From positions 864,001 through 928,000 of the forward strand of contig CAXXLX010000001.1 of assembly GCA_963665235.2 (NCBI GenBank): a stretch of DNA of 64,000 nt. The letters run 5' to 3'. The translations under genes and the position numbers were made by a program. Under the pieces are notes generated by a model that was not told the DNA's origin, did no database searches, and saw nothing but the letters and a program-made list of their open reading frames with translations. The stretch is from Candidatus Poribacteria bacterium (GTDB lineage: Bacteria > Poribacteria > WGA-4E > WGA-3G). How positions within the stretch are numbered: position 1 is the stretch's first letter; every line of letters begins with the position of its first letter. Shown here piece by piece: positions 58 through 46,261 of this stretch.

Positions 58-3000
58 TCAAAGCTCTCTTTGTAGGAAACGTGCCGTATGTGACTGCTCC
101 ACCGATGCAACCTCTTCGGGTGTGCCCATAGCAACAATCTCTCCGCCGCCTTTGCTGCCCTCCGGCCCTAAGTCAATAACCCAATCTGCCGATTTGATAA
201 TGTCCATGTTGTGTTCTATAGCCACAATCGTATTGCCAGCGTCAACGAGCTTGTTGAGGACGTTAAGTAGCTTCTGAATATCGTCAAAGTGTAGTCCTGT
301 TGTCGGTTCGTCCATGATGTAGAGCGTTGACCCAGTTTGTCTGCGCGAGAGCTCCTTCGCGAGCTTGACCCGCTGCGCCTCACCCCCCGATAGCGTCGGT
401 GCCGATTGTCCCAACTGGACGTAGTCCAAACCGACATCCGCTAACATTTTAAGTGGTCTGCGGATGCGGGAGATATCGCTAAAGAAGTCAAGTGCTTCCT
501 GCACTGTCATCTGTAAAACTTCAGCGATGTTTTTCTGCTTGTATTGGATTTCGAGGGTTTCCGCATTGTATCCTGTGCTATGACATATTTCGCACGGAAT
601 CCATACGTCCGGAAGGAAGTGCATCTCCACACGGGTAAAACGGTGTCCCTCACAGGTAGGACATTGGCCGTAGGAGAGATTAAAACTGAACCGTCCCGGG
701 CTAAATCCGCGCCGTTTTGCCTCCGGTTGTTCCGCAAACAGTTCTCGGATTTTCGTGAAGAGGTCGGTATACGTTGCCGGATTGGAACGGGGTGTTTCTC
801 CAATTGGATTCTGGTCGACGTTGATGAGACGTTGAATTGCGCTGCCTTGGACACGTTCATATTCCGCGGGGCCATAAGAGGACTCCCCTGCTGGTTCATC
901 TCCGATTTTGATAGTGGCTTGGCGTTCGAGCGCAGGACGGAGCGTGCCATCAATAAGTGAGCTTTTCCCACACCCTGAAACCCCTGTAACACACGTCAGT
1001 GTGCCGACCGGAATCTTGATATCAATATCCTTAAGATTATTCGTTTTTGCCCCGAACAGCTCTATCCATTCCCCTGTCCCTTTGCGGCGAACAGGCGGTA
1101 CGGGTATCTGCTTTTCATTAGAGAGATAGGCGCGGGTCAATCCACCTTCCGGTTCCCCCTTGCCTGCGGGGGCATTAGGGGGGTCAGCAACAATAGACGT
1201 TGGGTCGGTAAAGGTATCGGGTGCCCCCGTTGCCACAATTTCGCCGCCTCGCGTGCCAGCCATTGGTCCGAAGTCAATGATATGGTCAGCGGCTAATATG
1301 GTATCCCGGTCGTGTTCAACGACGAGGACACTATTACCGATGTCGCGCAGTGCTTTCATGGCGGAAATCAGTCGTTCCTGGTCGCGCGGGTGTAAACCGA
1401 TGCTCGGTTCATCGAGGATGTAGGTGACCCCGGTGAGCCCTGTGCCGAGTTGGCTTGCGAGACGTATCCTTCGGATTTCACCGCCGGAGAGCGTCGGAGC
1501 CGGGCGGTCCAATCCGATATAACCGAGTCCGATATCTTCAAGGAATCGGAGCCGAATTTGGATATAGCGAATCAGCTCCGCCTCAAACTCAGGGGAGGAA
1601 TATATATGAAGTGATGGATGCGTAGCCCTGGATATCGACACCCCTTTTTCTGCCGGCTGCTCGCTGTCCGCTGTCTGCTGTTTGCTGTCTGCTAATTGCA
1701 ATTCAATTGCCGCTATCCGTGCGTCTAGGAATTCAATAATTTCGGTAATGGACATCGCCATCAATTCAGCGATAGTTTGCCCGGAGAATCTTACACCGCT
1801 TGGGAATTCTGTTAACCGTGTGCCATCGCATATGTGGCATGGTCTTTTGTGATTTCCGGAACCTATGATGCCAAGTCCATCACATGTATTGCACGCGCCC
1901 ACTTTGTTGTTAAACGAGAAGTGCCGCGGTGTGAGTTGTGGATAATTTCTACCACATTCTGAACACATCGCATGCTCACTGAAGAAATGCCGCTCGGGGG
2001 TGCTTCTCCCTTTTTTATGTTCAATAACGGCAAACCCGCCACTTTCTTTAAGTGCTAACTCGATAGCTTCGGTAAAACGGCTTTTCTCTTCACCAATCGC
2101 TTCCACCCGGTCGATGACAATAAAAATTTCATGGCGCATCAGTTTTTGCATTTTGGGGGTTGCATCCAATCGATGGATTTGTCCATTTATTTGCACCCGA
2201 GCGAAACCGTATTTTTGCAACCTACGGAACGCAGCATCATAGTCCTCGTTCGGTTTCAACTTGTGCGGGGTATCCTCCTCTAGGACCACTTCGAAGTGGC
2301 GGTGCACAGCACTTCGTCCGGTTCCGCCTTGTCCCCTCTGACCTACCGTAACATGAAAGTCTGTAATCGGTGCCAGGACATCGACCATTTTTTGTGGGAC
2401 ACGTTCAAAAATCTGATGGACTATTTCCTCAGCCGTTTGTGAGTGGACCTCTACGTTACAGGTGGGGCAGTGAGGCACCCCCCATTTGGCATAAAGCGTG
2501 CGGAGCCCATCGTGAATTTCTGTAATTGTTGCCACTGTAGAACGCGGGTTTTGACTTGGGCTTGCATGCGAAATAGCAATCGCTGGGGACAATCCCTCAA
2601 CCTTTGAGACCTTAGGTTTTTCCATCGTCCCGATAAACTGCCGTGCATACGTGCTTAACGTTTCAATATAGCGGCGTTGTCCTTCAGCGTAAACTGTATC
2701 TAGGGCGAGGGATGTTTTTCCTGAACCGCTCACCCCCGTGAATGCGGTTAACTGTAGGTGTGGAATCTCAATGTCAATGTTTTTGAGATTATTTTCCGTG
2801 GCACCTCGTATAACAATAGACTGTAGGTCTGTTGGAACAACGGTGTTTTGTAGGTCCGGCATCCCATCGGACTCTCCGGATTTCCCGAGGTCGAATTCAC
2901 CGAGCAGGGCTTGTCCGGTGTAGGATTCAGGCACCGCTTTAACTTCCTCCGGGGTGCCCACAGCAACGATAGTGCCGCCCGCTGCGCCACCCTCCGGTCC

Positions 3001-5799
3001 TAAATCGATAAGATAGTCTGCGGAATTGATAACCTCAAGGTTATGTTCAACAACTACCACGGTGTTGCCTTCATCAACGAGCCGGTGCAGAATAGTTAGC
3101 AATTTATTCACGTCGTCAAAATGTAAGCCGGTAGTAGGTTCATCAAGGAGATAGATTGTTTTGCCGGTGCTGCGTTTAGAAAGTTCGCGAGAGAGTTTAA
3201 TCCGTTGCGCTTCCCCACCCGAGAGAGTTGGTGCGGGTTGTCCCAATTTGATGTAATCCAAACCAACGTCGTGGAGAAGTTGTAACCCTTTTGCGACTTT
3301 TGGAATATCGGCGAAATGTGCAAGGGCGGTTTCAATATCCATTTCAAGGACATCAAAAATATTTTTCTCTTTATATTTCACAGTAAGGGTTTCGTCGTTA
3401 TAACGTTTTCCATCACATACTTCACATTCAACCCAGACATCGGAAAGCAGCCCCATATCCACCTTTTTGGCCCCGTTGCCGTTACATGCTTCACATCGTC
3501 CGCCGACAACATTAAAGCTAAACCGGCCGGGTTTGTAGCCGCGCAATTTGGCATCCGGTAAGCCTGCGTAGAACGAACGAATTGCATCAAAGACCTTTGT
3601 ATAGGTCCCTGCATTCGAACGCGGGGTCCGCCCGATGGGTGCCATGTCAATGTTAATAATTTTATCAATGACATCGGAGACAGGGACGTTTTTCTTCGCG
3701 ATGATACCCCGAATTCGGTCGTAGTCGCCGGGGACAGTGTGTGCTTTCATCAGGTCTCGTGCGAGTGCGTTGTAGAGAATATCGTGAATTAGGGAACTTT
3801 TTCCTGAGCCGCTCACGCCAGTCACACAACACAATGTACCGATAGGGATTTTCGGATTAATGGATTTCAGGTTGTTTTGGCGGGCGTTGCAGATTTGGAG
3901 CCACTTGTCGCCTGTCGGTCGGCGCGATTCGGGTTGGACAATTTTCTTGTCACCTCGCAGATATTGGGCGGTGAGTGAATTGCCCTCCTCAAGGATTTGT
4001 GTAGGTGTTCCTATCTCGGTTATTTCGCCACCTCTGATGCCTGCACCGGGGCCGAAATCTACTATCCAATCCGCCATTAACATCGTCGCTTCATCGTGTT
4101 CAACGACGATAACGGTGTTCCCCTGATTGCGTAGATTGACAAGGGTTGTGAGCAAGCCTGCATGGTCGCGTGGGTGTAAACCGATGCTGGGTTCGTCAAG
4201 GACGTAGGTGACATCGCGTAAGCCTGCGCCGACCTGACTGGCGAGGCGGATACGCTGTGTTTCGCCGCCAGAGAGCGTCGGTGCAGCGCGAGACAGGGTA
4301 AGGTATCCGAGCCCGACATTTATGAGAAATCCGAGGCGGCCGCGTACCTCTTTCAGGAGTTCAGATGCGATAAACGTTTCCCGCGCTGGCAGTTCCAATT
4401 TGTTAAAAAAGTCAGCCGCTTCCTCAATAGACATTTCGAGAATGTCGGTTATATTCGCGTCATCTAGCTTCACCCCTCGCACTAAGGGGGCAAGGCGCGT
4501 CCCGTTGCATGCTCGGCAGGGCATTTTGACAAAGAAGTCAGGAAGGTGTCTGTTTTCACTGCGCTCAACATCCCCCCAGAAGTGCTGAGACTCATGGGCG
4601 GGAATTATTCCTTGAAATCTACCTCGAACCCGCTTCAGCCGTCTGTTGTACTTCGTAGGTTGGCTAATCGTCAACACAGCGTCCCCGGTACCGTAAAGGA
4701 CACTGTGCTGTTGCTCTGGCGTTAGTTCTTTCCATGGAGATTCAAGACTGAAGCCCAAGTATGCTGCTAAGGCACGTGCTACACCTCTGTTCCTATAATC
4801 CAGCTTTCCCCACAAGGTTATTGCACCATCAGGAATAGAGAGCGTATCATCGGGCACAATCAATTTCGGTGAGATGCCCATTGTCACCCCTAAGCCTCGG
4901 CACTCCTCACACATCCCGTAGGGACTGTTGAATGAGAAATGACGCGGTTCCGGTACTTCGTAGCTTCGCTGGCATTGTATGCAAGCGTACGCTGTACTGA
5001 ATAGTTCATCATCACCTTCTTGTATGCCAGCATTCGGAGCTTGCCTATTACTATCTGTCTGCGATGTGTCTTCAGCTGTAGAGACGATGTGTACAATAAG
5101 GTTGCCATCTCCTATAGAGAGCGCGGTATCCACTGATTGCGCGACGCGGCTTTCAATGTCTGCTTTGATGATAACTCTATCAATCACAATATCAATGTCG
5201 TGCCGTTGATTCGGATTGAGGTTAACGCTTGCATTGAGTTCATGCACCTCGCCATCAATGCGGGCGCGTATGAATCCTGCGCTACGTGCGTCTGACAGTT
5301 CTTTCCGATGCTCGCCTCTTCGCCCTCTAACGACAGGGGCTAAAATCAGGAGCCGGGTGCGTGGGGGAAAGCTGAGAATCCGGGAAACAATATCTGCCGG
5401 AGTTTGTGAACCGACCTGCTCTCCACATTCTATGCAGTGTAATTGTCCAGCACGTGCAAAGAGCACCCGTAGGTAATCGTAAATTTCGGTTACAGTGGCA
5501 ACCGTTGAACGCGGGTTATGTCCCGTTGACCCTTGACTGATGGCGATAGAGGGGGATAGGCCGATAATTTCGTCTACCTCCGCTTTTCCTAATTGACCCA
5601 AAAATTGTCGCGCATACGCAGACAACGACTCTATATACCGCCGCTGACCTTCGGCATATACGGTATCCATCGCAAGTGAAGATTTGCCAGAGCCGCTAAC
5701 TCCGGTGAAAACAATCAGTTTATTTTTGGGGAGCTTGACATCAATATTTTTTAGATTGTGTTGCCGCGCCCCCTGTACATGAATTGATGCGTCTGTCAT
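58..5799 (-). CDS. uvrA: Excinuclease ABC subunit A, double-length (two tandem UvrA modules)
   Basis: 1913 aa with four Walker A motifs (GVSGSGKSS twice, GVSGSGKTS, GVSGCGKSS), four LSGGE signatures, Zn fingers, and two 'AEGQRRY' N-terminal motifs. Confidence 0.97.
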   Translation of the reverse strand: MTDASIHVQGARQHNLKNIDVKLPKNKLIVFTGVSGSGKSSLAMDTVYAEGQRRYIESLSAYARQFLGQLGKAEVDEIIGLSPSIAISQGSTGHNPRSTVATVTEIYDYLRVLFARAGQLHCIECGEQVGSQTPADIVSRILSFPPRTRLLILAPVVRGRRGEHRKELSDARSAGFIRARIDGEVHELNASVNLNPNQRHDIDIVIDRVIIKADIESRVAQSVDTALSIGDGNLIVHIVSTAEDTSQTDSNRQAPNAGIQEGDDELFSTAYACIQCQRSYEVPEPRHFSFNSPYGMCEECRGLGVTMGISPKLIVPDDTLSIPDGAITLWGKLDYRNRGVARALAAYLGFSLESPWKELTPEQQHSVLYGTGDAVLTISQPTKYNRRLKRVRGRFQGIIPAHESQHFWGDVERSENRHLPDFFVKMPCRACNGTRLAPLVRGVKLDDANITDILEMSIEEAADFFNKLELPARETFIASELLKEVRGRLGFLINVGLGYLTLSRAAPTLSGGETQRIRLASQVGAGLRDVTYVLDEPSIGLHPRDHAGLLTTLVNLRNQGNTVIVVEHDEATMLMADWIVDFGPGAGIRGGEITEIGTPTQILEEGNSLTAQYLRGDKKIVQPESRRPTGDKWLQICNARQNNLKSINPKIPIGTLCCVTGVSGSGKSSLIHDILYNALARDLMKAHTVPGDYDRIRGIIAKKNVPVSDVIDKIINIDMAPIGRTPRSNAGTYTKVFDAIRSFYAGLPDAKLRGYKPGRFSFNVVGGRCEACNGNGAKKVDMGLLSDVWVECEVCDGKRYNDETLTVKYKEKNIFDVLEMDIETALAHFADIPKVAKGLQLLHDVGLDYIKLGQPAPTLSGGEAQRIKLSRELSKRSTGKTIYLLDEPTTGLHFDDVNKLLTILHRLVDEGNTVVVVEHNLEVINSADYLIDLGPEGGAAGGTIVAVGTPEEVKAVPESYTGQALLGEFDLGKSGESDGMPDLQNTVVPTDLQSIVIRGATENNLKNIDIEIPHLQLTAFTGVSGSGKTSLALDTVYAEGQRRYIETLSTYARQFIGTMEKPKVSKVEGLSPAIAISHASPSQNPRSTVATITEIHDGLRTLYAKWGVPHCPTCNVEVHSQTAEEIVHQIFERVPQKMVDVLAPITDFHVTVGQRGQGGTGRSAVHRHFEVVLEEDTPHKLKPNEDYDAAFRRLQKYGFARVQINGQIHRLDATPKMQKLMRHEIFIVIDRVEAIGEEKSRFTEAIELALKESGGFAVIEHKKGRSTPERHFFSEHAMCSECGRNYPQLTPRHFSFNNKVGACNTCDGLGIIGSGNHKRPCHICDGTRLTEFPSGVRFSGQTIAELMAMSITEIIEFLDARIAAIELQLADSKQQTADSEQPAEKGVSISRATHPSLHIYSSPEFEAELIRYIQIRLRFLEDIGLGYIGLDRPAPTLSGGEIRRIRLASQLGTGLTGVTYILDEPSIGLHPRDQERLISAMKALRDIGNSVLVVEHDRDTILAADHIIDFGPMAGTRGGEIVATGAPDTFTDPTSIVADPPNAPAGKGEPEGGLTRAYLSNEKQIPVPPVRRKGTGEWIELFGAKTNNLKDIDIKIPVGTLTCVTGVSGCGKSSLIDGTLRPALERQATIKIGDEPAGESSYGPAEYERVQGSAIQRLINVDQNPIGETPRSNPATYTDLFTKIRELFAEQPEAKRRGFSPGRFSFNLSYGQCPTCEGHRFTRVEMHFLPDVWIPCEICHSTGYNAETLEIQYKQKNIAEVLQMTVQEALDFFSDISRIRRPLKMLADVGLDYVQLGQSAPTLSGGEAQRVKLAKELSRRQTGSTLYIMDEPTTGLHFDDIQKLLNVLNKLVDAGNTIVAIEHNMDIIKSADWVIDLGPEGSKGGGEIVAMGTPEEVASVEQSHTARFLQREL

Positions 5800-8163: not shown

Positions 8164-8300
8164 TATATATTGAAGAGCAGGCTTGTAGCCTGAAGCCTGT
8201 GTAATACTATGTATTTCACATCTTATACGGTTTGCAAGCTGCTTATAGAAAGCAACCAGGGTTCATCTACCAAAGCACGCAGAAAAATCCCGCGTGCGCC
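8164..8300 (-). ncRNA. Putative omega-RNA scaffold overlapping the tnpB 3' end and right end
   Basis: Position expected for TnpB loci; hairpin caggctt...aagcctg at about 8178-8199; 5' boundary is a guess. Confidence 0.5.
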
Positions 8301-9388
8301 GTTCAAATCTCTGTCCATCTTGAGTCCTGTGCTATCTTTGATAACTTTAGCGCCACCTAAGTTTTTGACAATCTCGCCTGTCCAAGACACAGTTTTTGAC
8401 GTGTAAGCCTCGCAGACATCCAGCACAAGACATCCAGTTTCTTTTGCTTTATGCTTAAGGAACTGTTTGAAACGGTAATGGGAGAGAGTCAACATTTGGC
8501 GGACTGTTCTTTTATGGAGTTTGCGTCCACTTTTACAAGTCTTATGAGAAGTCTCAAAAGTGGGGAGTAAGATAATATCAAAGTTATCGACAAGCCACCG
8601 TGCGACTTTCTTATGCAACTCATCCACAAGGTTTCTAATCCGTTTTCTGATACGATTTGCGGCACGTCTCATGTTCTTCTTTGCCTGTTGCTTAGTTGCT
8701 TTAGAGGCACGGGATAATAGGTCGTCAAGATATGAACAAAGTCGTTGAATACGATTAATTGCATGGTGTCCGAGCCAGCCGAACCCATGCTCATGAAAAT
8801 ATGTGAGGAATGTCCTAACACCGGGGTCAAGTGCGACGACACGTCCGTTTGGTTTTCGCTTCTGTGTCGTCACACTATAACTGACACACAAATAGTAGTG
8901 TGTGCCCTCTTTGACTAAGCGCGAGTCTTTGATATTTTCAGGGAGACGCTCACTGAGCCTAAGTTTTCCTAACTTTGTGTGATATACGCCATTTTCAGAT
9001 ATGGCAGCTTTGGGTATAAAGATACTATCTGAAGGCGTTCGTTTAGATTTAAATGAAACAGATTGAAACTGTCCCGTTTTCTGACATTTCTGCTTTGCTG
9101 CGCGAACAGCAAGGCAAGCATCCCGAATAGCAACTGACTTAATTTGATATGGAACAGGTTTAGCCCAATCGGGTAAATCGTCAAGGATACCTGTCTTAAT
9201 CGCTATCCAGTTCGCTTGGGTGTCCGTGTTGTTCAACAAAGCAACCGTTTTGTTGTAGGTCCAACGCGCTGTGCCTATCCATTGACGCAGCGTCTCACGC
9301 TGTTCGGTTGTCGGATAAACTCTTATCTTCTTTGATTTGGTCACGGTAACTTCGGAGACCATGCAGTCTGCAACTGAAGACATGCAGG
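8223..9388 (-). CDS. tnpB: RNA-guided endonuclease TnpB (pro-Fanzor-like); frame stays open upstream to 9809, start uncertain
   Basis: KKIRVYP...Q...RWTYN N-terminus; RuvC-I VALDPG, shifted RuvC-II CEAYTSKT, RuvC-III DRDLNGARGI. Confidence 0.92.
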
Positions 9389-9882
9389 ATGGCGAGAAGA
9401 TCCGACGTGAGCTCTTCTTCTGGACTGTGTTCTGTTTGGTCAAGAACCACGAGTTCGCCACCGTTTTGTTCAACGAGGTATCGTATAAGGTCGATACCGA
9501 ACCGGGCGAGACGGTCCCGATGGGCAATAATAACTTCGAGCTTATCACCTTGCATAAGCCGGTCCAGTAAGGCTTTAAGTCCTTTTCTTTTGAAGTTAAG
9601 ACCACTTCCGATGTCTCTGATGATTTCTGCTTCGGGGTAGATACTTCGCATATAAGCGACTTGGCGTTCAAGGGCATCTCTTTGGTTTGGGCTGGACACC
9701 CGACAATAGCAAACAGTGGTAACTGATTTTGATTTGCTTTTGATGTATCCGTCAACATCGTAGCGTCTGTGTCCGCCTCCAGTGCGGATAATATCAATCT
9801 TTCCTTCATTTGCTAATCTCCGTAAGTAGTCCGGGGTATAATCCAGTATTTCACTCGCTTTTTTTGCTGATACATAAACCAT
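9295..9882 (-). CDS. tnpA: IS607 transposase TnpA (MerR-like HTH plus serine recombinase)
   Basis: TGGGHRRY HTH, YCRVSS catalytic Ser, DIGSGLNFKRKGL, DRLARFG. Confidence 0.96.
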   Translation of the reverse strand: MVYVSAKKASEILDYTPDYLRRLANEGKIDIIRTGGGHRRYDVDGYIKSKSKSVTTVCYCRVSSPNQRDALERQVAYMRSIYPEAEIIRDIGSGLNFKRKGLKALLDRLMQGDKLEVIIAHRDRLARFGIDLIRYLVEQNGGELVVLDQTEHSPEEELTSDLLAILHVFSCRLHGLRSYRDQIKEDKSLSDNRTA

Positions 9883-11403: not shown

Positions 11404-11432
11404 GCAACCTTGTATCACATAAGATGCGTCTA
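11404..11432 (+). promoter_or_regulatory. Putative ECF sigma promoter (autoregulatory)
   Basis: GCAACC...CGTCTA upstream of the ECF gene; similar GCAACC...CATCTT upstream of the paralog at 25158-25185. Confidence 0.55.
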
Positions 11433-11469: not shown

Positions 11470-14400
11470 ATGAAAAACAAAAAAGATGCTGTTTTGCTAC
11501 AACAAAGAACTAATCCAGCGGACATTAGATGGCGATGAAACGGCATTTACTGCCTTAGTCGAAAAATACCAAAAAGGGGTCCACGCCCTCGTGTGGAAAA
11601 AGATTGGCGATTTTCATATCGCACAAGAGATTACGCAAGACACCTTTCTCAGGGCTTACCAGAAACTCAACACCCTGAGAAACCGGACCCTGTTTTCCAG
11701 TTGGCTTTATGTTATCGCCACTCGCTTGTGCCATGAGTGGGGCAGAAAAAAACGTCTGCTGATGGAACCCTTGAATACTCACAATACCAAGGAGGTTGAG
11801 CAGGTGGCATACAACCAATACCTAGCGGAACAACGTGCAGCAGATGCCGATGAGACTCGGCGTGAACTTGTTAAGAAGCTGCTCAAAAAACTGCCAGAAA
11901 GCGAACGCACTGTGATGACGCTCCATTACCTTGGGGAAATGACGTGTGAAGCGATAAGTGAATTTCTCGGAACATCGCCGAACACGGTGAAGAGCCGACT
12001 CCATCGTGCACGCGAACGACTAAAAAAGGAGGAATCTGTGATACACGAAAACCTTAGCAGTTTCAAACTGCCACCGCAATTGATAGAGAATATCATGAAG
12101 AAAATTTCACACCTCAAACCTGTACCCCCTTCAGGGAGTAAACCTGTGGTGCCGTTAGCGGTTTCCGCTGCGTCAGCCATTTTAGTGCTGCTATTGATAG
12201 GGGTCGGTATGCAACACCTACTCCGTTTTCAGCAACCGTATAGCTTCAACGCAACATCGGAACCGACAATTGAAATTGTAGAGACGCAACTCGTCATCGA
12301 CACACCGGCGAAACCCGCGATGCGTACACAGGTCGGCCGGTCGGATGTCTCCGGTAAGGGTAGCGGGGCGGGAAAAAGGTCAGATGTTCCGCTATTCGCG
12401 GCGGCACTCTCCGATGAAGAGGCGACTTCAAAGCCGAAACGGCACTGGGTTCAAACAAAGGGACCAGAAGGGGGTGTAATCAATAGGCTTTTCTCAACAA
12501 CTCGCGGTGATATTTATGCGGGTACATCCACCACATTATATAAACTGGCGGACAACGGAAATTCTTGGAAACTTGTTCGCACTGAAACTGCTACTACCTC
12601 AATAAACCTGTGGAATTGGGCCATGCCAAGTGGTGGCAAACCGATAGTGGAACGCGGGGACACGCTCTACCTCGCCACAGATACAGAGGTCCTGACATCT
12701 ACTGATAGCGGTGAAACTTGGACATCACTCGGAACGCATCCAAAAGGCTACCCTTCGGGAATTGTGGTAACAGACCGTGCTCTTTACCTTGCCCTTATGA
12801 AGGATATGCTCAAGTCGGATGCTACGCTTTCTGAGGGAATATTCCGATCTGAGGATGCTGGCAAATCATGGAAGCCGCTAAAGGACAGTCCTCTTGTAGG
12901 TAGGACAATTCGTGCCATTGCTGCTATTGAAAATACCGTGTTTGTTGGCACCGATGATGGCCTTTACCGCCTCAACGCAGAAGGGTGGAAAAAATTAACC
13001 GTTGGTCAGACAGATTTTGCCGCTGATCAGACAGATGTTAAGGGCGGAAAAATCACTATTCCCTCCTTGGCTGTTGCTGAAAACCGCCTCTACGTCGTAG
13101 CAGGGAAAAAAATCACGAATCAGAAATCTGTCACGACAAGCGACTCATGGTGGTCAGTTTACCGCTCCTCTGATTTAGGTGAATCATGGGAAAATATAGA
13201 GCCTAGGGAAGAAAAATCGAAAGGTGGATTGTCGGTTACGTTTCCGATGTTAGGTAAAAATTCAACACACGAGAATATTCCTTATATGGATATCAAGCTC
13301 GTTGCGGAAAATGAGAAGGTTATCCTTATTATAGATGTTGAGAAGATTTTCTATTCAACGGATACCGGCGAGACCTGGAAAGCCTTAGATATAGCGGGTA
13401 GTTCAAAGTTCAATACCGCGTTTCCTATGCTGATAAAGGATGCAAAAACCTTCTACAGAGGCAGCCAATCGGGTATTTATCGTACAACCGATGGCGGTGA
13501 ATCGTGGCATCCATTTAATACCGGAATTGCAAGCGCGGCCGTTATAAATTTAATCGCGGTTAGTGGCAAACTCTATGGGAGAACAAATGATGGATTTGTA
13601 ACTTCAACGGATGGCGGTGAATCGTGGGAGCCGTTCCGTGTTGATGTTCCAATATCTTCTATGGCTGAATTCAACAATGCGCTCTACTTGAAAGAACTCA
13701 GATAAGATACTCACTATCTTCCGCTTGTCCACGGACAATAATGAACTTACGCCCATTCTCGATATGCCCCAGCTGGGTGAAATCAATAAAGGCAGTCCAT
13801 TAAATTTAGACGTGTTTTCGGATAAGGGCAGGAAAAATATTAAGCAAGGAGCAACCTCCGAGCCGGTAGATGTTGATTTTGACAAATTCAGTAAAGAAGC
13901 AATTAAGGTGTTCCAGGAGCAACAGGAGCAAATGGCAACTGCACTTATACCACTTTTTGGAAGCTTCGCAGTTAGCAGTAATACCTACTATGTGGAATAT
14001 GGGCAGAAACTTTTCAGATGGAAATCCGGGACGACCGAATGGTACAACACAGGGTTAATAGATGAAACTGAAATTGTGTTTCCATTTAATATTGTTGGTC
14101 CTTTTGGCTATCCGACAGACCTTTCCACCTTAATGGAATTTCAAAATTCTCTCGGTTTCAAACTTGCGGTGTCCGGGAAGACTATTTATGTCGGCAGGCG
14201 GGATGGACATATCTTCCAATCGTTTGATGAGGGGAACACTTGGAACGATGTCACGGCAAATTTACCCTTTTCTGTTAAGCAGTTCTACACAATTGACTTC
14301 GCAGGGGCGACCGTTTACGTCGCAACGGACAAAGGGGTTGTGTATTCAAAAACCGATGGCACCGATTGGCATACGACTACCGATGCAGAAGGCGCACCGA

Positions 14401-28309: not shown

Positions 28310-28491
28310 CTGGAGGGTGTGTAAAGTTTTTTACGGGCATTCGGGCGTAAGGTTTCCCAATCCTTTAGGTTTGGGATATAAGTTTCCCGCTAAGGGCGTA
28401 ATCCCTGAAAATTAATTTGAGGAATATTGATGACCTTGTGTCATAAATATCCCTCCTTTGACCAAAAACTGTGGTATAATTATACTGACAC

Positions 28492-28551
28492 TTTTGGATA
28501 GGAGTTCTACCCTACACAAACTTTTGGATAGGAGTTCTACCCTACACAAAC
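28492..28551. repeat. 30-bp direct duplication
   Basis: ttttggataggagttctaccctacacaaac twice. Confidence 0.9.
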
Positions 28552-28830
28552 TCAGTGTGGGTCCTATCCCTCACCTGTAGAACGGTGTGTAGTGTTAGTG
28601 TTAGACCACTTAAAAAGTATATCGGGCAGTTAACGCATAATTGCATGAAAGCTTGTATCGTGGCGGGGGTGAAAGTCCGCACGTTGTATCACTGCCCCTC
28701 TCTTAAAATATCGTTTATGATTTCTTCAAAACGAGGCACGTGGGGATAGACAGGACCCTTCTGACCTGATATGCCTGTAGGATTTTTCACCTACAGGGAA
28801 TCGCGTGCGGGTGGAGACGACATAAAAGGA

Positions 28831-29137
28831 TGTCCTCGGTGGGACCGATGTCCTCGGTGGGACCGATGTCCTCGGTGGGACCGATGTCCTCGGTGGGACC
28901 GATGTCCTCGGTGGGACCGATGTCCTCGGTGGGACCGATGTCCTCGGTGGGGACCGATGTCCTCGGTGGGACCGATGTCCTCGGTGGGACCGATGTCCTC
29001 GGTGGGACCGATGTCCTCGGTGGGACCGATGTCCTCGGTGGGACCGATGTCCTCGGTGGGACCGATGTCCTCGGTGGGACCGATGTCCTCGGTGGGGACC
29101 GATGTCCTCGGTGGGACCGATGTCCTCGGTGGGACCT
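28831..29137. repeat. Tandem array of 17 copies of an 18-bp unit (tgtcctcggtgggaccga)
   Basis: Directly visible; two units carry an extra G. Confidence 0.97.
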
Positions 29138-29214
29138 CGGACGTTCGACCTTCGGGAAGAACGCAAACGTCTATGAAGCCGAAGCCCACGCCTTTAGGCG
29201 TTGGGTGCTATCAC

Positions 29215-34341: not shown

Positions 34342-34400
34342 TGGCTACTGAGCTTTGGACAATCAATTTTAGGGGGGCGTAAAGTTTATCAAAGGAATAG

Positions 34401-34668
34401 GTGGAAGGATGGAAGATTGGAAGAATGGAAGGATGGAAGCGGGGAAGGATGGAAGGATGGAAGATTGGAGGGATGGAAGATTGGAAGATGGAAGGATGGA
34501 AGATTGGAAGAATGGAAGGATGGAAGATTGGAGGGATGGAAGATTGGAGGGATGGAAGATTGGAAGGATGGAAGGATGGAAGATTGGAGGGATGGAAGCG
34601 CGGAAGATTGGAGGGATGGAAGATTGGAAGAATGGAAGGATGGAAGCGGGGAAGGATGGAAGATTGGA
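34401..34668. repeat. Purine-rich 8-bp tandem repeat (GGAAGGAT/GGAAGATT)
   Basis: Directly visible; shorter copies at about 32330, 49660 and 50813. Confidence 0.95.
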
Positions 34669-34912
34669 TTTCGCGTGTGTTGTCTGAATCGCGGAAAACA
34701 CAGAGAACACAGAGAACGCGGAAAAAGAGGTTTCTTGCTAACATGTGTGCATTTTTCGTCTGAATCGCGGATTAGCACAGAGAATGCAGCGGACGCGGAT
34801 TTTAAATCGATTAGTCATTGGCAAGAGGAAGAGGGTTTTGACGCGCGGCAGAGACAGGCTTAGCATCACAAACTTCTTGCTAACAGCCAACAGCCAACAG
34901 CCAGAAGAGAGA

Positions 34913-36394: not shown

Positions 36395-36610
36395 GGTGGC
36401 TATTGGAAACCATTGGCTGTTGGCTGTTGGCTATTGGTTGATAACCGTTGTCGGGATATCTGTAGCCTCTTCCTCTTCTGTAGAAGCGTGCTGTGCACGC
36501 GATACATTATATCTTCTGTAGGAGCGTGCTGTGCACGCGATACATAATACCATTTTTATTAATTATTCTATCATTACCGGTTGTTTAGAAATGAAACGGA
36601 GAACGGAAGA

Positions 36611-37487
36611 CCCAAACTGGAAGTTTATGCTACAAGAATCGCACAAACTGGAAGTTTATGCTACAAGAATCGCCCAAACTGGAAGTTTATGCTACAAGAA
36701 CAAGAATCGCACAAACTGGAAGTTTATGCTACAAGAATCGCACAAACTGGAAGTTTATGCTACAAGAACAAGAATCGCACAAACTGGAAGTTTATGCTAC
36801 AAGAAACAAACTGGAAGTTTATGCTTCGCACAAACTGGAAGTTTATTCGCCCAAACTGGAAGTTTATGCTACAAGAACCGCACAAACTGGAAGTTTATGC
36901 TACAAGAATCGCACAAACTGGAAGTTTATGCTAAGTTTATGCTACAAGAATCGCCCAAACTGGAAGTTTATGCTACAAGAACCGCACAAACTAAAAGTTT
37001 ATGCTACAAGAATCGCACAAACTAAAAGTTTATGCTACGAATCGCCCAAACTGGAAGTTTATGCTACAAACTGGAAGTTTATACAAGAATCGCCAAACTG
37101 GAAGTTTATGCTACAAGAACCGCACAAACTAAAAATACAAGAATCGCACAAACTGGAAGTTTATGCTACAAGAACCGCACAAACTAAAAGTTTATGCTAC
37201 AAGAATCGCACAAACTAAAAGTTTATGCTACAAGAATCGCACAAACTGGAAGTTTATGCTACAAGAACCGCACAAACTGGAAGTTTATGCTACAAGAATC
37301 GCACAAACTGGAAGTTTATGCTACAAGAATCGCACAAACTGGAAGTTTATGCTACAAGAATCGCCCAAACTGGAAGTTTATGCTACAAGAACGCGCACTA
37401 AAAACTGGAAGTTTATGCTACAAGAATCGCACAAACTGGAAGTTTATGCTACAAGAACCGCACAAACTGGAAGTTTATGCTACAAGA
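36611..37487. repeat. Degenerate tandem array of a 31-bp GTAG-type REP unit, roughly 25-28 copies
   Basis: gcacaaactggaagtttatgctacaagaatc; reverse complement GTAGCATAAACTTCCAGTTTGTGC; flanked by tgtaggagcgtgctgtgcacgcga REPs at about 36517 and 37525. Confidence 0.95.
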
Positions 37488-37562
37488 AAGAGACATTTTC
37501 AATTAGAAATGGTATAATATTTTCTGTAGGAGCGTGCTGTGCACGCGATACCTCCTACCGTT

Positions 37563-41091: not shown

Positions 41092-41513
41092 CTAAACTTT
41101 GGACAATTTTAGAGTTTCGATTTGCGTTGTTGTCTGAATGCACGTCGCATTTGGGCGAGTGCGCCGCAAATCGCGGATTATCGCGGATTACACAGATTAC
41201 GCGGATTTTAAGGTGTGTATGCGTCAAGGTTTTGTGATTAAGTGATGTTGCGTTTTTTTGTCTGAATCACGGAAGGCACAGAGGACGCGGAAAGAAGCGG
41301 GGTTTGGCTAAAATCTATAAAGATACCGCCCCGCTGGGGCTATTTTTTGTTTTGTTTGTGTTTTCTATAAAGATACCGCCCCGCTGGGGAAACCGCGCTT
41401 TGGCGCATCGGAGTCTATTTTCTACTGTTTGTATTTGTGTGAGGCACTTAGAGAAAAATCAGAAATGCTTTGAAAATCGGGCATCAGGCTCACAGAAATT
41501 GTCCAAACTATAG
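41092..41513. mobile_element. MITE with TA-flanked TIRs (IS630/Tc1-like) and repeat cargo
   Basis: TA-ctaaactttggacaattt ... aaattgtccaaactatag-TA; solo ends at about 23555, 32193 and 50762. Confidence 0.72.
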
Positions 41514-41557
41514 TAAAAATAGGATGCAGAATCTATCCATTTTCTATTATCAACGTT

Positions 41558-41976
41558 CCGCGACAAAACCCAATCCTTTAGGTTTGGGATGTAGTCGCGG
41601 CTAAAAACTCTGATTAACATTAAACCTTTTTGCGAATCTTTCGTCTAATAGATTAGAGTGTACGGTTGCTATAGAGGGCAGTTACGCGCCTCATTGATTA
41701 GACTTCCTATAGTGTAAAGCTCTAATGTCGTAGTCAGAAAGCGTAGCGCGACAGTCGTTAGTAGGGAAAGACAGGTAATGCTGAAACCCGTTTGAACAAT
41801 ACGACTCAAAACAAATTTCACAAGGACACTTCGGTGTCGCAGTCAGGGTAGTGTCTGTTGCAGTAGGCTTCTGTCCCTGGAGAACCGCTATAGGTTTTCT
41901 AAACAAGGTCGTTGATCGCACGAAAGCTTTCGCATAACTTTGCGGAAGCCCAAGTCTTTAGACTTGGGTCTATCAC
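41558..41976 (+). mobile_element. Non-autonomous IS200/IS605-derived element with structured non-coding interior
   Basis: Left hairpin ccgcgac-aaaa-cccaatcctttaggtttggg-atgta-gtcgcgg; right end gaagcccaagtctttagacttgggtctatcac. Confidence 0.78.
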
Positions 41977-41998
41977 TCTCACTGTGAGTTGAACCGTC

Positions 41999-42424
41999 AT
42001 GAAATTTCTTTTGAAAAAACATGTCAATATCCTTCTGATATGCCTACTTATCTATTTCGCCGTAATTCCGATGCAGCTATCCAATTATGTTTTGTGCATC
42101 GGTGAGGATGGGCATATTGAAGTTGAAGCTGCAACCCATGGTCGCTGCTGCCCCGACGCGCGTGCTGCGCATACGGAAATTGCGACAGAGCAAGACCACT
42201 GTGGAGCATGCGTTGACCTCCCTATCTTTTCCTCCTTAAATACCGAACAATACGTCGTCTCTTCGGAACACGCGGCGGCACACGACTCCGTTTGCACATC
42301 AGCTGTGCTCATCACACACCAGCCCGGTGTTTCTCCGACTTTACCCGTTACACCCCTTTTGACGCGCCCCGCGTTCATTAACCCGAAACTCATTTCCCTT
42401 CGGACCGTTATTCTCCTCATTTAG
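41999..42424 (+). CDS. Small Cys/His-rich putative metal-binding protein leading the RND operon
   Basis: VLCIGEDGH.E.E, CC, HCGACVDLP, C-terminal LRTVILLI. Confidence 0.8.
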   Translation: MKFLLKKHVNILLICLLIYFAVIPMQLSNYVLCIGEDGHIEVEAATHGRCCPDARAAHTEIATEQDHCGACVDLPIFSSLNTEQYVVSSEHAAAHDSVCTSAVLITHQPGVSPTLPVTPLLTRPAFINPKLISLRTVILLI

Positions 42425-43815: not shown

Positions 43816-46261
43816 ATGTTACGTTATTTTTACAAAAAAAATGTAGGTCAGAACTACAGATATGCCATTGGGCTTGCTATTTCTGTTATAGCAATAGCCG
43901 GGCTGGCCTCACTGACCCTCATTTTCACAACCACCTGGGCTGAGGATACGCCTATCGATGAGGGCGAGGATGCCCCGCAGACACACGGAAATGTAAAAAA
44001 TACAGGGATGGTGACGCTGACCGATAAGGCAAAAGTGAACATCGATTTGAAAACTGACGAGGCGGATATTCGCGCTATTGAAAAGGTTACACAGGTTACA
44101 GGTAACGTCATCGCGCACCCCGGGCGACAAGCACGCGTCACGCCCAGAATAGGCGGTATCGTCCAACGCATCTACTTCCAAATGGGAGATTCGCTCAAAG
44201 CGGGGGATGTACTATTGGAATTGGAGAGCACGGCGTTGCAAATGCTACAGATTGACCTGATTGAAGCGGTGGCACAACAGAAATCTTTAGAGAATAAATT
44301 GACGAAATTGACAGAGGTTTTCGCAAAGCAGATTCGTCGAGAATTACAAACTCGGCAAATTGATTACCTTCAATCGGTTGATGAACGCAAGGCACAGAAA
44401 ACGGCTCTGGACAAACATAAAACCTTGGCTATTGCGAAAACAACTTCCGCCTTAGAACAGATGCGTGCTGCACTTGCCACAGCGCACGTTGACCTCCGCC
44501 TGTTGGAAACAACGCTCAAGCGGACGAAATCCCTGACAGCGCAACGTATTTCCGCACAAAAGGAGTTGGTGGCGCAACAGGCAGCGTATACGAAAGCGAA
44601 AAACGCTTTCGCTGAGGCAAGACAGCAATTTCATCTCATCGGGGTTAGTGACGAGACGCTAGAAAAGATTCTGCACGACGGCGGCGAAACCCCTATCCTT
44701 TCACTTATAGGGCGGGTTGAAGGGACGGTCGCGAGCGAAGCTCGCTCCTACAGAAGGGACGGTCGCGAGCGAAGCTCGCTCCTACAGAGGAGAACCGGCA
44801 CAGGTCGCGAGCGAAGCTCGCTCCTACAGAGGAGAACCGGCACAGGTCGCGAGCGAAGCTCGCTCCTACAGAGGAGAACCGGCACAGGTCGCGAGCGAAG
44901 CTCGCTCCTACAGAGGAGAACCGGCACAGGTCGCGAGCGAAGCTCGCTCCTACAGAGGAGAACCGGCACAGGTCGCGAGCGAAGCTCGCTCCTACAGAGG
45001 AGAACCGGCACAGGTCGCGAGCGAAGCTCGCTCCTACAGAGGAGAACCGGCACAGGTCGCGAGCGAAGCTCGCTCCTACAGAGGAGAACCGGCACAGGTC
45101 GCGAGCGAAGCTCGCTCCTACAGAGGAGAACCGGCACAGGTCGCGAGCGAAGCTCGCTCCTACAGAGGAGAACCGGCACAGGTCGCGAGCGAAGCTCGCT
45201 CCTACAGAGGAGAACCGGCACAGGTCGCGAGCGAAGCTCGCTCCTACAGAGGAGAGGACGAGCAGCTCGAGAACTCCGATGCACCGCACCCCGCCTTGCA
45301 GTACGTCACGCTTATTGATGAGGCGACCGATTTGGTCGATGCGGAAGCCGCATACAGAACCGCTATTATCAAGGTTGATGCTAACAGGCAGCGGGCATTG
45401 GCATCAGGTCTTACGGAAGTGCTTCTAAAAAACCTTGTGCACACTGGCAAAATTAAGTCTTTTGAGGATGTGCCGCACAGAAAACTGATTGACAATTACC
45501 TTGCTGTTGTGGAAAGCACGGAGGCGTTAGAGGGGCTGCTCCAAATAGAGGAAGCTATTCGGAGTGCGGACATAACCTTGAACAAGATTCAGCAACAACT
45601 TCAGGTGTCCGGACTCACACAAGCAGCTATAGAAAAAATTATGCAAACGGCACAACCGATTAAAACGTTCTATATCACAGCTCCCGCCGCTGGAAAAATC
45701 GTCCAGCAACAGGTAACCCTCGGGGCTACCGTTGAAAAAAACGATACGCTCTTCTCACTCTTGGATACAAGCACAGTGTGGATTGAAGGCGACGCTTACG
45801 AAGACACGTTACCACTTATTTCGGTTGGGAGCGAAGTCCGCATTCGCGTGCCAGCGTATCCGGAGGAGACGTTCATAGGCAAGATTTCAAAAATTTCATC
45901 GGTTATGAACCCGGAGAAACGGACAGCTCACTTCTACACAGAGGTCAGCAATCCTGACGACAAGCTGAAACCGGGTATGTTTGCTGAACAGACAGTTGTC
46001 ATTGAAAGATTAGACGACGTTTTGACGGTGCCCTTGCGTGCACTACTCATAGAGGGGACCACACAGTTTGTTTTCGTTGAAATAGGCAACACGTACATCA
46101 AACATGAAGTTGAGGTGGGGGCAAAGGATGACCGGTACGTTGAAATCAAAGACGGTTTATTGGCAGGTGAACGTGTCGTTGTCCAGGGCGGATATCAACT
46201 GATGCAAACCGCAGCAGGTACATCAGACGTTATTGACCCCCATGCAGGACATAATCATTAA
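43816..46261 (+). CDS. RND periplasmic adaptor (CzcB/CusB-like) with internal REP array; frameshifted at about 44720-44760
   Basis: N-half lipoyl motif (PRIGGIV...GD.LKAGDVL) in ORF 43816-45318; C-half (APAAG, LKPGMFA, GL.AGERVV, DPHAGHNH) in ORF 44717-46261. Confidence 0.88.
44728..45248. repeat. 13 GTAG-type REP copies inside a CDS (42-bp period, first spacing 34 bp)
   Basis: gtcgcgagcgaagctcgctcctacagaggagaaccggcacag. Confidence 0.97.

What the first reader, a model, noticed from the sequence alone, without database searches (positions are those of the whole stretch)
41558..41995. Second IS605-ended element carrying a different roughly 330-nt structured RNA behind an ECF-like promoter
Seen: it has the same cccaatcctttaggtttgggat left hairpin and ctatcac terminus as the 28-kb element, but an unrelated interior. 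AAACC...CGTCTAAT (41622-41649) resembles the motif before the ECF gene at 11404. It is followed by stems attagagt/gctctaat, ctatag/ctatag, gtcgta/tacgac, a cUUCGg hairpin (gacacttcggtgtc), caggg/ccctg, aacc/ggtt and cgaaagctttcg. Inference: a family of RNA-cargo transposons with shared ends and distinct ncRNA payloads, perhaps under ECF control. The putative guide tctcactgtgagttgaacc comes from the 5' UTR of the metal-efflux operon.
Basis: partly seen in the sequence, partly recalled or inferred. Interest (0 to 1): 0.75.

Follow-up and report, generated by a model that had tools for sequence, protein, structure and literature searches.

The report
Gene-less transposon carrying TnpB guide RNA
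This is a 425-base, protein-less jumping element of a sponge symbiont that carries its own promoter and a guide-RNA scaffold for the transposon nuclease TnpB, a kind of element already described, though it also keeps an unexplained conserved hairpin that sits inside the nuclease gene of its full-length relatives.

Summary
Window 41552-41976 is an ORF-less IS200/IS605-type mini element (PATE type). It lies 3' of TTATC and ends in TCTATCAC. The genome (a Candidatus Poribacteria MAG, by relatives) holds 5 full copies plus one of a second subtype; homologs were found only in Poribacteria.

The interior is not an unrelated cargo RNA. Its 3' ~140 nt is a diverged TnpB omegaRNA scaffold. A hairpin loop (GGUAG) pairs with the last bases of the element (CUAUC) as a pseudoknot. 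Loop and tail covary together (GACAU/GGCAU with AUGUC), both in ORF-less elements and in the co-resident TnpB elements that share the same ends. A UUUA tetraloop sits at -20..-17, as reported for ISDra2.

A dedicated promoter drives the RNA: sigma-70 consensus in relatives, AAC-N16-CGTC in this genome. No terminator precedes the flank, which supplies the guide.

Most likely TnpA and TnpB act in trans, as already proposed for PATEs and standalone omegaRNAs. Transcription and TnpB binding are inferred, not shown.

One thing is unexplained. The most conserved block of the extra ~185-nt 5' domain matches a hairpin in the RuvC-I codons of tnpB. There it is maintained by synonymous-site covariation: 36 of 36 paired, at least 14 switches.

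The parts
41547..41551 (+). TTATC, the target site and candidate TAM directly 5' of the left end
   Evidence: 32 of 33 LE-like sites in the genome have TTATC 12-14 nt before the CAAAA motif; the exception reads TTTTC. TTATC is invariant in the 9-row alignment and stands at the same place in the 33-copy alignment. The empty site in a sister species reads ...TTAT|GGATC, so the C could instead be the first base of the element.
41552..41600 (+). Left end. Outer stem CCGCGAC (41558-41564) with GTCGCGG (41594-41600), around the TnpA-type hairpin at 41569-41589
   Evidence: The outer stem changes in a compensatory way between copies: CCGCGAC/GTCGCGG against CGGTGTC/GACACCG. The LE and RE hairpins co-vary between copies. 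The same left end flanks TnpA+TnpB and TnpB-only elements.
41622..41649 (+). Promoter: AAACC, a variable 15-nt spacer, then CGTCTAAT (AAC-N16-CGTC, ECF-like)
   Evidence: Both boxes are conserved and the spacer is variable in 5 of 5 copies. At the same position 24 of 33 aligned copies (relatives) have at least 10 of 12 matches to TTGACA-N17-TATAAT. No sigma-70-like site is found in the window copy.
41654..41838 (+). 5' domain of the RNA, with helices P1, P2, P3, P5 and P6. It has no detected sequence counterpart in tnpB elements apart from the hairpin block listed next
   Evidence: 92.9% of cells are paired, 9 pairs changed on both sides, and 0 of 500 shuffles reach the score. P6 shows 6 double changes on each of 4 pairs. 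tblastn with 37 genome TnpBs gives only E above 0.2.
41764..41789 (+). Conserved hairpin GGGAAAGACAGGTAATGCTGAAACCC, which matches the tnpB codons K-T-G-K-A-E upstream of the RuvC-I Asp
   Evidence: This is the most conserved block of the RNA. Local alignment to the interior of the cognate IS605 scores 31, and 0 of 300 shuffles reach it. In tnpB the same hairpin is kept by synonymous covariation: 36 of 36 paired, at least 14 changes on the tree.
41839..41861 (+). P7 hairpin, the equivalent of omegaRNA stem 1. Its loop GGTAG (41847-41851) forms the pseudoknot
   Evidence: The loop 5-mer is complementary to the tail 5-mer in 26 of 27 distinct ORF-less elements, including 3 with GACAT or GGCAT paired to ATGTC. 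TnpB elements have an analogous hairpin.
41866..41921 (+). P8 (41866-41870 with 41906-41910), which encloses an insertion specific to this genome, followed by the invariant GTCGTTGATCGCAC (41908-41921)
   Evidence: P8 and its inner hairpin covary in relatives. GTAGG..GTAAG and CGTTGA..CAC motifs are shared with TnpB 3' ends.
41927..41948 (+). P9 hairpin CTTTCGC/GCGGAAG
   Evidence: 4 of 7 pairs have double changes. The sequence is shared with TnpB elements.
41949..41968 (+). P10, the right-end TnpA hairpin and equivalent of omegaRNA stem 4, with UUUA loop at -20..-17
   Evidence: 6 of 8 pairs have double changes. The loop position was counted. The ISDra2 tetraloop lies at -20..-17 according to passages of PMC10097598.
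41969..41976 (+). Terminal TCTATCAC. CTATC (41970-41974) is the 3' strand of the pseudoknot, and the element ends at 41976
   Evidence: All 5 copies end here and diverge afterwards. Pseudoknot covariation is shown.
41977..41996 (+). Flank that would be read as the guide (TCTCACTGTGAGTTGAACCG), 5' of the ORF at 41999
   Evidence: Assigned by position only. No terminator-like site lies between the promoter and the flank. The guide length is assumed.

Best explanation
Window 41552-41976 is a non-autonomous, ORF-less IS200/IS605 element of the PATE type. Its cargo is a stand-alone TnpB guide RNA (omegaRNA) gene.

Proposed mechanism:
1. A Y1 TnpA encoded by full IS605 copies elsewhere in the genome recognises the shared LE and RE hairpins. 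It moves the element as single-stranded DNA to sites 3' of TTATC.
2. An internal promoter transcribes an RNA of about 320 nt. With no terminator in the way, transcription runs over the right end into the flank.
3. The 3' ~140 nt folds like the omegaRNA of the co-resident TnpB: a stem-1-like hairpin whose loop pairs with the last bases of the element, then P8, P9 and P10 with a UUUA loop.
4. TnpB supplied in trans would load this RNA with the flank as guide.
5. After excision, TnpB would cut the rejoined donor site (TTATC plus flank), so that recombination restores the element.

Shown here: the anatomy, copy number, recent mobility, an empty site for a homologous copy in a sister species, helix covariation, and pseudoknot covariation matched to the cognate TnpB class.

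Inferred: transcription, processing, TnpB binding, cleavage, and any role of the extra 5' domain.
For: Mobility:
- 5 copies sit in different flanks, and two of them are 100% identical over 427 nt.
- A sister species has the two flanks contiguous where G034 carries a homologous 415-nt copy.
- TTATC precedes 32 of 33 left ends.

Partners in the same genome:
- 44 TnpB zinc-ribbon matches and 13 Y1 TnpA matches.
- One IS605 copy with the same ends has an intact TnpA and a TnpB bearing the GFDMGIK, FFEDLN and RDHNAAINI motifs.

omegaRNA identity:
- The last ~80 nt are shared with TnpB 3' ends.
- A covariance model of the 3' domain hits TnpB 3' ends at E from 1e-12 to 1e-5. In 3 of them it aligns P7 to the TnpB hairpin.
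- The loop is complementary to the tail in 26 of 27 ORF-less elements and in 16 of 22 TnpB-type ends, with 2 more at 4 of 5 positions. Both tail classes occur, CTATC and ATGTC.
- In genome G028 the TnpB element and the mini element carry the same variant tail, each with a matching variant loop.
- The pseudoknot and UUUA positions agree with ISDra2 (passages).

Structure: 98.3% of cells are paired, 20 of 39 pairs changed on both sides, and 0 of 500 shuffles reach this.

Promoter: conserved boxes with a variable spacer, and a 12-of-12 sigma-70 match in a relative.

Prior art: PATEs 'often encode omegaRNAs' acted on in trans, and standalone omegaRNAs work in trans.
Against: - There is no direct evidence that the RNA is made. 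Contigs from two metatranscriptome runs of one study cover 41653-41844 only at about 93-96% identity, so they come from related copies. They also extend upstream of the proposed start, so they could be DNA or read-through.
- The 5' ~185 nt has no detected sequence counterpart in tnpB elements apart from one hairpin block, and it is more conserved than a dispensable leader should be.
- 6 of 22 TnpB-type ends were not scored as fully complementary by my script: 2 scored 4 of 5, and 4 were misses (a truncated contig, a non-TnpB sequence, a stem mismatch, and a search window that was too narrow).
- The covariance-model alignment is fitted to the model, so its pair counts lean towards the structure.
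- P10 covariation could reflect TnpA recognition of DNA rather than RNA.
- No Rfam family matches.
- No empty site was found for the window copy itself.
Confidence: 0.8

Rival explanations
1. The RNA is a cargo with a function of its own that does not depend on TnpB, such as a regulatory sRNA or an outward-reading promoter module that drives the downstream efflux operon. On this view the omegaRNA-like 3' end is only what is left of the transposon end.
For: The 5' domain is the most conserved part and has no detected sequence counterpart in tnpB elements. The promoter points into the ORF at 41999 and the OEP and HlyD-like genes, with no terminator between. The same promoter motif stands elsewhere in the genome, away from these elements.
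Against: Conservation and covariation extend through P7-P9, which TnpA does not need. The P7 loop tracks the tail class exactly as in TnpB genes. The copies sit in unrelated flanks.
Confidence: 0.08
2. The element is a decaying deletion remnant (a dead MITE) whose interior is no longer functional.
For: It lacks any ORF, and one block matches tnpB codons, as a deletion derivative would.
Against: Across Poribacteria genomes 20 of 39 pairs of the 3' domain show compensatory changes while 98.3% of cells stay paired. The promoter is kept, or replaced by another type at the same position, in both subtypes of this genome. Two identical copies at different sites indicate a recent move.
Confidence: 0.06
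3. The RNA guides a nuclease-dead TnpB relative (TldR-like) or a sigma-associated TnpB, and serves to regulate genes rather than to keep the transposon in place.
For: Exapted TnpBs, including ones linked to RpoE-type sigma factors, are described (passages of PMC10691335). The promoter in this genome resembles an ECF promoter, and a gene with ECF-sigma domains and a 529-aa TnpB-like gene lie in the window.
Against: The cognate TnpB with the matching tail has all three RuvC motifs. The element is mobile and multi-copy, with a different flank at each copy. The guide matches its own insertion flank, as in the transposon-retention model.
Confidence: 0.04

Closest known systems
PATE-like minimal IS200/IS605 elements that encode omegaRNAs (Geobacillus stearothermophilus; Meers et al. 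preprint PMC10055086, passages read)
   Same: No protein-coding gene. LE and RE hairpins are shared with TnpA/TnpB elements of the same genome. Insertion is next to a TAM-like motif. The guide-RNA scaffold lies at the right end, and TnpA and TnpB must act in trans.
   Different: The host phylum differs (Candidatus Poribacteria). This element has a dedicated consensus promoter. It has an extra, conserved, structured 5' domain of about 185 nt, so the scaffold is not a simple leftover of the tnpB 3' end. I could not see that paper's extended-data figures or supplements, so similar features there cannot be excluded.
Standalone (effector-less) omegaRNAs of OMEGA systems (as summarised in Altae-Tran et al. 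2023, PMC10691335, passages read)
   Same: A mobilised omegaRNA without effector or transposase, in a genome that also holds effector-containing loci; reported there to work in trans.
   Different: The trans activity was shown for other systems and was not tested here. The biological role is described there as unknown.
ISDra2 TnpB omegaRNA (Nakagawa et al. 2023, PMC10097598, passages read)
   Same: The pseudoknot forms between the loop of the 5'-most core stem and the bases just before the guide: -7..-3 here, -6..-2 there. A UUUA tetraloop sits at -20..-17. The guide comes from the flank 3' of the right end.
   Different: There is no sequence similarity. The core is about 138 nt here and 116 nt there. 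In ISDra2 the region 5' of the core is disordered and dispensable; here the 5' region is conserved and covaries. TAM is TTATC here and TTGAT there.
Inhibitory region of AmaTnpB mRNA next to the RuvC-II codons (Nety et al. 2023, PMC10278001, section 12 read)
   Same: A precedent that an internal stretch of tnpB mRNA, outside the omegaRNA, can act on TnpB activity at the RNA level.
   Different: That region lies near RuvC-II and is proposed to pair with the scaffold. The hairpin here lies at the RuvC-I codons, is defined by covariation, and has no demonstrated effect.

Membership tests
Non-autonomous IS200/IS605 element (PATE) | Subterminal hairpins at both ends, shared with TnpA-bearing elements of the same genome | tested here: met
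   The LE and RE hairpins match those of IS605 TnpA+TnpB copies.
Non-autonomous IS200/IS605 element (PATE) | Insertion 3' of a fixed short target, with no target duplication | tested here: met
   TTATC precedes 32 of 33 left ends. The empty site in G118 is contiguous within 1 nt. No direct repeat flanks the copies.
Non-autonomous IS200/IS605 element (PATE) | No protein-coding gene | tested here: met
   tblastn with 37 TnpBs gives E above 0.2. The longest ORF is 76 aa on the minus strand, and a 25-nt insertion in copy c3756k interrupts it.
Non-autonomous IS200/IS605 element (PATE) | Evidence of mobility | tested here: met
   5 copies lie in different flanks and two are identical over 427 nt. 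A filled and an empty orthologous site were found.
TnpB omegaRNA | Scaffold abuts the right end and is transcribed towards the flank, which supplies the guide | tested here: inconclusive
   The position, the promoter orientation and the absence of a terminator fit. The transcript itself is not shown.
TnpB omegaRNA | Pseudoknot between a core hairpin loop and the bases just 5' of the guide | tested here: met
   The loop is complementary to the tail in 26 of 27 ORF-less elements, with two tail classes. The same rule holds in TnpB elements.
TnpB omegaRNA | Similarity to the scaffold encoded at the 3' end of a co-resident tnpB | tested here: met
   The last ~80 nt are shared. The covariance model hits TnpB 3' ends at E from 1e-12 to 1e-5, and P7 is aligned to the TnpB hairpin in L014, L015 and L016.
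TnpB omegaRNA | Binds TnpB and directs TAM-dependent DNA cleavage | not testable with these tools
   This needs biochemistry or genetics.
Rfam RNA families (all 4227 models, including any transposon-associated motifs held there) | A match at the gathering score | tested here: not met
   No match in the window. Only chance-level matches at 41300-42200. No relevant match in two TnpB loci.
ECF-sigma-dependent promoter | AAC at -35 and CGTC at -10, about 16 nt apart | tested here: met
   AAC-N16-CGTC is present in 5 of 5 copies. The consensus itself is recalled, not taken from a call.
ECF-sigma-dependent promoter | Dependence on an ECF sigma factor | not testable with these tools
   The motif before the ECF-domain gene at 11486 has an 18-nt spacing instead of 16. 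Relatives use a sigma-70-type promoter.

The most novel reading that the evidence does not exclude
The conserved hairpin (outer stem, AAGA internal loop, C-N-G/C-N'-G inner stem, GUNANG loop) may be a previously undescribed cis-acting RNA module of this TnpB lineage.

It is embedded in the RuvC-I codons of tnpB, where it is held by synonymous-site covariation. ORF-less derivatives of two different TnpB classes have kept it, with a flipped or replaced outer stem.

If true, the functional RNA of these systems is more than the 3' scaffold. The hairpin could act as a TnpB loading or processing signal, a stabiliser, or a regulator. The extra 5' domain of the mini element would then exist to present it.
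Probability: 0.3. Interest if true: 0.65.

Novelty: new variant of a known kind. Interest (0 to 1): 0.42.

Why it matters
As a guide-RNA-only mini transposon it adds a well-resolved example to a class already described. It comes from a poorly studied sponge-symbiont phylum rich in TnpB: 44 zinc-ribbon matches in a 5.3-Mb genome.

It shows two parallel TnpB and mini-element systems in one genome, kept apart by matching loop and tail pairs. That amounts to a natural specificity code, and swapping those 5 bases would test it.

The more interesting lead is the hairpin inside tnpB. Gene-less descendants keep it, which suggests an RNA-level or single-strand-DNA-level function beyond the known scaffold. 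That could bear on how TnpB ribonucleoproteins are assembled or regulated, and on the design of minimal guide RNAs.

Tried and rejected
**Rfam.** The gathering scan of the window gave no match. The E-value scan of 41300-42200 gave only chance-level hits. The scan of two TnpB loci gave only a neighbouring tmRNA.

**Decayed coding sequence.** tblastn with 37 TnpBs against the copies found nothing at E below 0.2.

**RNAalifold on the MAFFT alignment.** It preferred a long-range helix (5' GUGU.GGUU with GAUC.GCAC) and UUUGA/UCAAA. Both are invariant, so neither can be tested. The first crosses P1 and the second excludes P5, and both P1 and P5 covary. I keep the long-range pairing only as a possibility.

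**First pseudoknot tally script.** It failed because of wrong loop geometry and loose tail patterns. Searches replaced it.

**Expression.** Of the 4 runs laid, two are on record as RNA, and their contigs cover the RNA body. However, they are related copies, they extend upstream of the proposed start, and contigs cannot show starts, ends or levels. No conclusion on transcription was drawn.

**Empty site for the window copy.** No contig joined 41551 to 41977 in the 4 runs laid. An empty site was found only for a homologous copy in another genus.

**Pairing partner for the hairpin's AAGAC.** I looked for one within the scaffold, and none was consistent across sequences (by eye).

**K-turn reading of the hairpin.** It does not fit the consensus as I recall it.

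**Earlier notes of this scan.** There was nothing on this genome's element. Eight notes on other genomes describe similar gene-less omegaRNA elements, all filed as a known kind.

**Literature.** 'Poribacteria' with 'TnpB' returned 0 papers. 'TnpB, synonymous, covariation, RuvC' returned 0 papers. These two searches do not show that the hairpin is unpublished.

Full report
**1. What is there**

The region reads, left to right:
- TTATC (41547-41551)
- a left end with an outer stem and a hairpin (41552-41600)
- AAACC, 15 variable nt, then CGTCTAAT (41622-41649)
- about 320 nt of conserved sequence
- a right-end hairpin (41949-41968)
- TCTATCAC (41969-41976)

The left-hairpin 22-mer occurs twice in the window, at 28356 and 41569, with none expected by chance.

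BLAST against the window's own genome (5.3 Mb, 4 contigs, laid) finds 5 full copies at 90-100% identity in unrelated flanks. Two of them are 100% identical over 427 nt. nhmmer adds a sixth copy of another subtype and a second family of mini elements.

No ORF is conserved. The longest is 76 aa on the minus strand, and a 25-nt insertion in one copy breaks it. tblastn with 37 TnpB proteins of the genome finds nothing at E below 0.2. Rfam has no match.

**2. Relatives**

BLAST of the interior found it in 8 places in 5 of 60 related genomes, apart from the window's own genome. A degenerate pattern scan of one genome per species (185,579 species) found 21 loci, all in Candidatus Poribacteria MAGs. 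Every one is a 400-430-nt element with the same layout.

TTATC stands directly 5' of the left end: it is invariant in the 9-row alignment and sits at the same place in the 33-copy alignment. In the genome, 32 of 33 LE-like sites have it at a fixed distance; the exception reads TTTTC.

In a sister genus, one species (G118) has the two flanks contiguous (...GGATTAT|GGATCTTTAG...). Another species (G034) has ...AATTATC, a 415-nt element, then GGATCTTTAAT at the same site. This is a filled and an empty site. It leaves a 1-nt doubt whether the C belongs to the target or to the element.

**3. Promoter**

In the five copies of this genome the two boxes are conserved while the spacer differs. That is the signature of a promoter.

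At the same position, 24 of 33 aligned copies, all from other genomes, have at least 10 of 12 matches to TTGACA-N17-TATAAT. One has 12 of 12 with a TG extension.

The window copy has no sigma-70-like site and no terminator-like site between the promoter and the flank.

Both subtypes in this genome carry TAAACC...CGTCTAA, so the promoter type appears to have been adapted to this host. It fits the AAC-N16-CGTC form that I recall for ECF sigma factors.

The motif before the ECF-domain gene at 11486 (Pfam) has an 18-nt spacing. Sigma dependence is therefore open.

**4. The RNA is structured, on the plus strand**

RNAalifold on 24 sequences predicted 63 pairs, 18 of them with compensatory changes, and many G-U pairs that would not pair on the other strand.

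A covariance model of the 3' domain (149 positions) realigned 23 distinct sequences:
- 98.3% of cells are paired.
- 20 of 39 pairs changed on both sides.
- 0 of 500 shuffles reach this.
- Slid controls reach at most 54.7% paired.
- The alignment is fitted to the model, so these counts lean towards the structure.

For the 5' domain, on the MAFFT alignment:
- 92.9% of cells are paired.
- 9 pairs changed on both sides.
- 0 of 500 shuffles reach the score.
- One helix (P5) scores only 75%, because six sequences sit one base out of register.

**5. It is a TnpB guide RNA**

The genome has 44 TnpB zinc-ribbon matches and 13 Y1 TnpA matches. Elements with the same LE and RE carry TnpA plus TnpB. One such TnpB has the GFDMGIK, FFEDLN and RDHNAAINI motifs.

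The last ~80 nt of the mini element are shared with these TnpB 3' ends: CAC-AAAxG, then P9, P10 and TCTATCAC.

About 155 nt before their end, right after the RuvC-III codons, the TnpB elements have a hairpin AAGGAAG-GGGTAG-CTTCCTT. Its loop is complementary to the terminal CTATC.

The mini element has the P7 hairpin in the equivalent place, with loop GGTAG or GATAG. The model of the mini RNA hits TnpB 3' ends at E from 1e-12 to 1e-5. In L014, L015 and L016 it aligns P7 onto that hairpin, followed by the shared (T/G)TAGG...GTAAG motif.

The decisive point is a second tail class. Elements that end in ...TATGTCAA(T) have loops GACAT, GGCAT or GGCGT instead. This holds in several kinds of element:
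- a TnpB element of genome G028 (L054)
- the 400-aa TnpB family of this genome
- this genome's second mini family
- the mini elements of G028, G013 and G029

Tally:
- In 26 of 27 distinct ORF-less elements the loop is fully complementary to the tail. The remaining one was not parsed by my pattern.
- Among 22 TnpB-type ends, 16 are fully complementary and 2 match at 4 of 5 positions. The other 4 were missed by the script: a truncated contig, a non-TnpB sequence, a stem mismatch, and a search window that was too narrow.

This is the omegaRNA pseudoknot. In ISDra2, bases -6..-2 pair with the loop of stem 1, and a UUUA tetraloop lies at -20..-17 (passages of PMC10097598). Here CUAUC lies at -7..-3, and the P10 loop UUUA lies at exactly -20..-17 (counted).

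The genome thus holds two parallel systems, each with its own TnpB and its own gene-less guide elements, kept apart by the loop and tail pair.

**6. How it most likely works**

Shown:
- the ends, the target and the mobility
- the promoter signature
- the fold
- the match of the scaffold to a co-resident, apparently intact TnpB

Inferred:
- TnpA in trans moves the element.
- The promoter drives an RNA that runs into the flank.
- TnpB in trans loads it.
- After excision, the rejoined TTATC plus flank is cut and repaired from the sister copy. This is the model of Meers et al..

That preprint states that PATEs 'often encode omegaRNAs' needing TnpB in trans. Altae-Tran et al. 2023 state that standalone omegaRNAs function in trans and that their role is unknown. 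The kind is therefore known. Supplements and figures of these papers were not visible to me.

On expression: contigs of two metatranscriptome runs from one study cover 41653-41844 at about 93-96% identity. They are related copies, they extend upstream of the proposed start, and contigs cannot show starts or levels. I draw no conclusion from them.

**7. What is not explained**

The 5' ~185 nt (P1-P6) is conserved and covaries, unlike the dispensable 5' region of the ISDra2 omegaRNA.

Its most conserved block (41764-41789) matches tnpB codons K-T-G-K-A-E upstream of the RuvC-I Asp in the cognate TnpB:
- The local alignment scores 31, and 0 of 300 shuffles reach it.
- The second mini family matches the version of its own TnpB class at the same place, with 1 of 300 shuffles reaching the score.

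In tnpB this stretch folds as GAACCC-AAGA-CNG-GUAAAG-CN'G-AA-GGGUUC. N and N' are the third positions of the Thr and Ala codons.
- In 36 distinct tnpB segments they form a standard pair in 36 of 36 (A-T 11, G-C 11, G-T 5, C-G 5, T-G 4). If the two sites were independent, 53% would be expected.
- The following Gly codon is GGG in 36 of 36.
- On a tree of 35 of these segments, built with the two sites masked, the pair type changes at least 14 times.
- G-T and T-G pairs mean the structure forms on the sense strand, either as RNA or as the transposed single DNA strand.

The mini elements keep the inner stem and the loops, but their outer stem is flipped: GGGA...UCCC instead of CCC...GGG. In the second family it is replaced by GGTATCC/GGATACC.

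I found no report of this hairpin. One search for 'TnpB, synonymous, covariation, RuvC' returned 0 papers. The nearest precedent is an inhibitory mRNA region near RuvC-II in AmaTnpB (section 12 of PMC10278001). Its function here is unknown.

**8. Verdict**

The finding is real. It is best filed as a guide-RNA-only IS200/IS605 mini element, a known kind. It is a variant of that kind in three ways: its own promoter, a conserved extra 5' domain, and a retained tnpB-internal hairpin.

Earlier notes of this scan on other genomes describe similar gene-less omegaRNA elements and reached the same classification. I did not test them.

Noticed in passing
window 28356-29214: The '28-kb element' shares the 22-nt left hairpin and ends in ...GCTATCAC. 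It lacks the CAAAA/GATGTAG left-end motifs and TTATC, and it holds an array of 18-nt tandem repeats. Partial copies lie elsewhere in the genome (for example C1:185280-185769 at 82%). The omegaRNA model hits its right end only weakly (E 0.19).
   Followed up: partly
G000:C1:2603632-2604097, 1772422-1772886 and 2583952-2584423, plus about six partial copies (for example C1:546351-546613): A second family of ORF-less mini elements, about 470 nt long. It has a TTGACT-N17-TATAAT promoter, loop GGCAT and tail GTATGTCAAT, matched to the 400-aa TnpB family of the genome. The shorter matches share only the first ~260 nt.
   Followed up: partly
L007, L008, L009, L014-L016, L026, L027, L030, L054 and L060-L091 (tnpB genes); L061:1215-1260: A conserved hairpin lies inside the tnpB ORF at the RuvC-I codons. 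It is kept by covariation of the synonymous third positions of Thr and Ala codons (36 of 36 paired, at least 14 changes on the tree). Three TnpB clades of this genome carry the PKTG-type motif.
   Followed up: partly
G000:C1 around 1690630-1690830 (outside the window): A CRISPR-like array with repeat TTTTAATCGAACCAGTTTGGAATAGAAAC. One spacer contains the TAAACCTTTTT...CGTCTAAC promoter motif of the mini elements, but it is not identical to any resident copy.
   Followed up: no
G000:C1:4311714 (outside the window): The same promoter motif stands about 1.9 kb upstream of an ORF whose sequence looks to me like a Ro60/TROVE protein. That is recall, not a test, so a Y-RNA-like gene might lie there.
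   Followed up: no
window 8223-9812 (-) and 11486-13705 (+): A 529-aa TnpB-like ORF (HTH_OrfB, OrfB_IS605 and TNB domains), with six similar copies in the genome. It lies about 1.7 kb from a gene that fuses ECF-sigma domains to BNR/sortilin-type repeats.
   Followed up: no
window 41912-41979 in RNA runs X1 and X2: Contigs from metatranscriptome runs that cover the shared right-end and omegaRNA 3' module have summed depths of about 800-4500, against 3-6 for the neighbouring gene. One is a 314-nt contig at depth 863 whose upstream part reads like a TnpB 3' end. Depths are summed over many related elements and cannot rank expression.
   Followed up: no
window 43816-45318, 34370-34700, 36569-37542 and others: The window is unusually rich in tandem and dispersed short repeats. 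Examples are a 42-nt repeat run (about 12 units) inside the HlyD-like ORF, GGAAGGAT runs, and the dispersed CTATAAAGATACCGCCCCGCTGGGGC units that also lie just upstream of the element at 41315-41398.
   Followed up: no
L007:453-806 (-): A tmRNA gene (Rfam, 183 bits) lies next to a TnpB element with these ends in a related genome.
   Followed up: no
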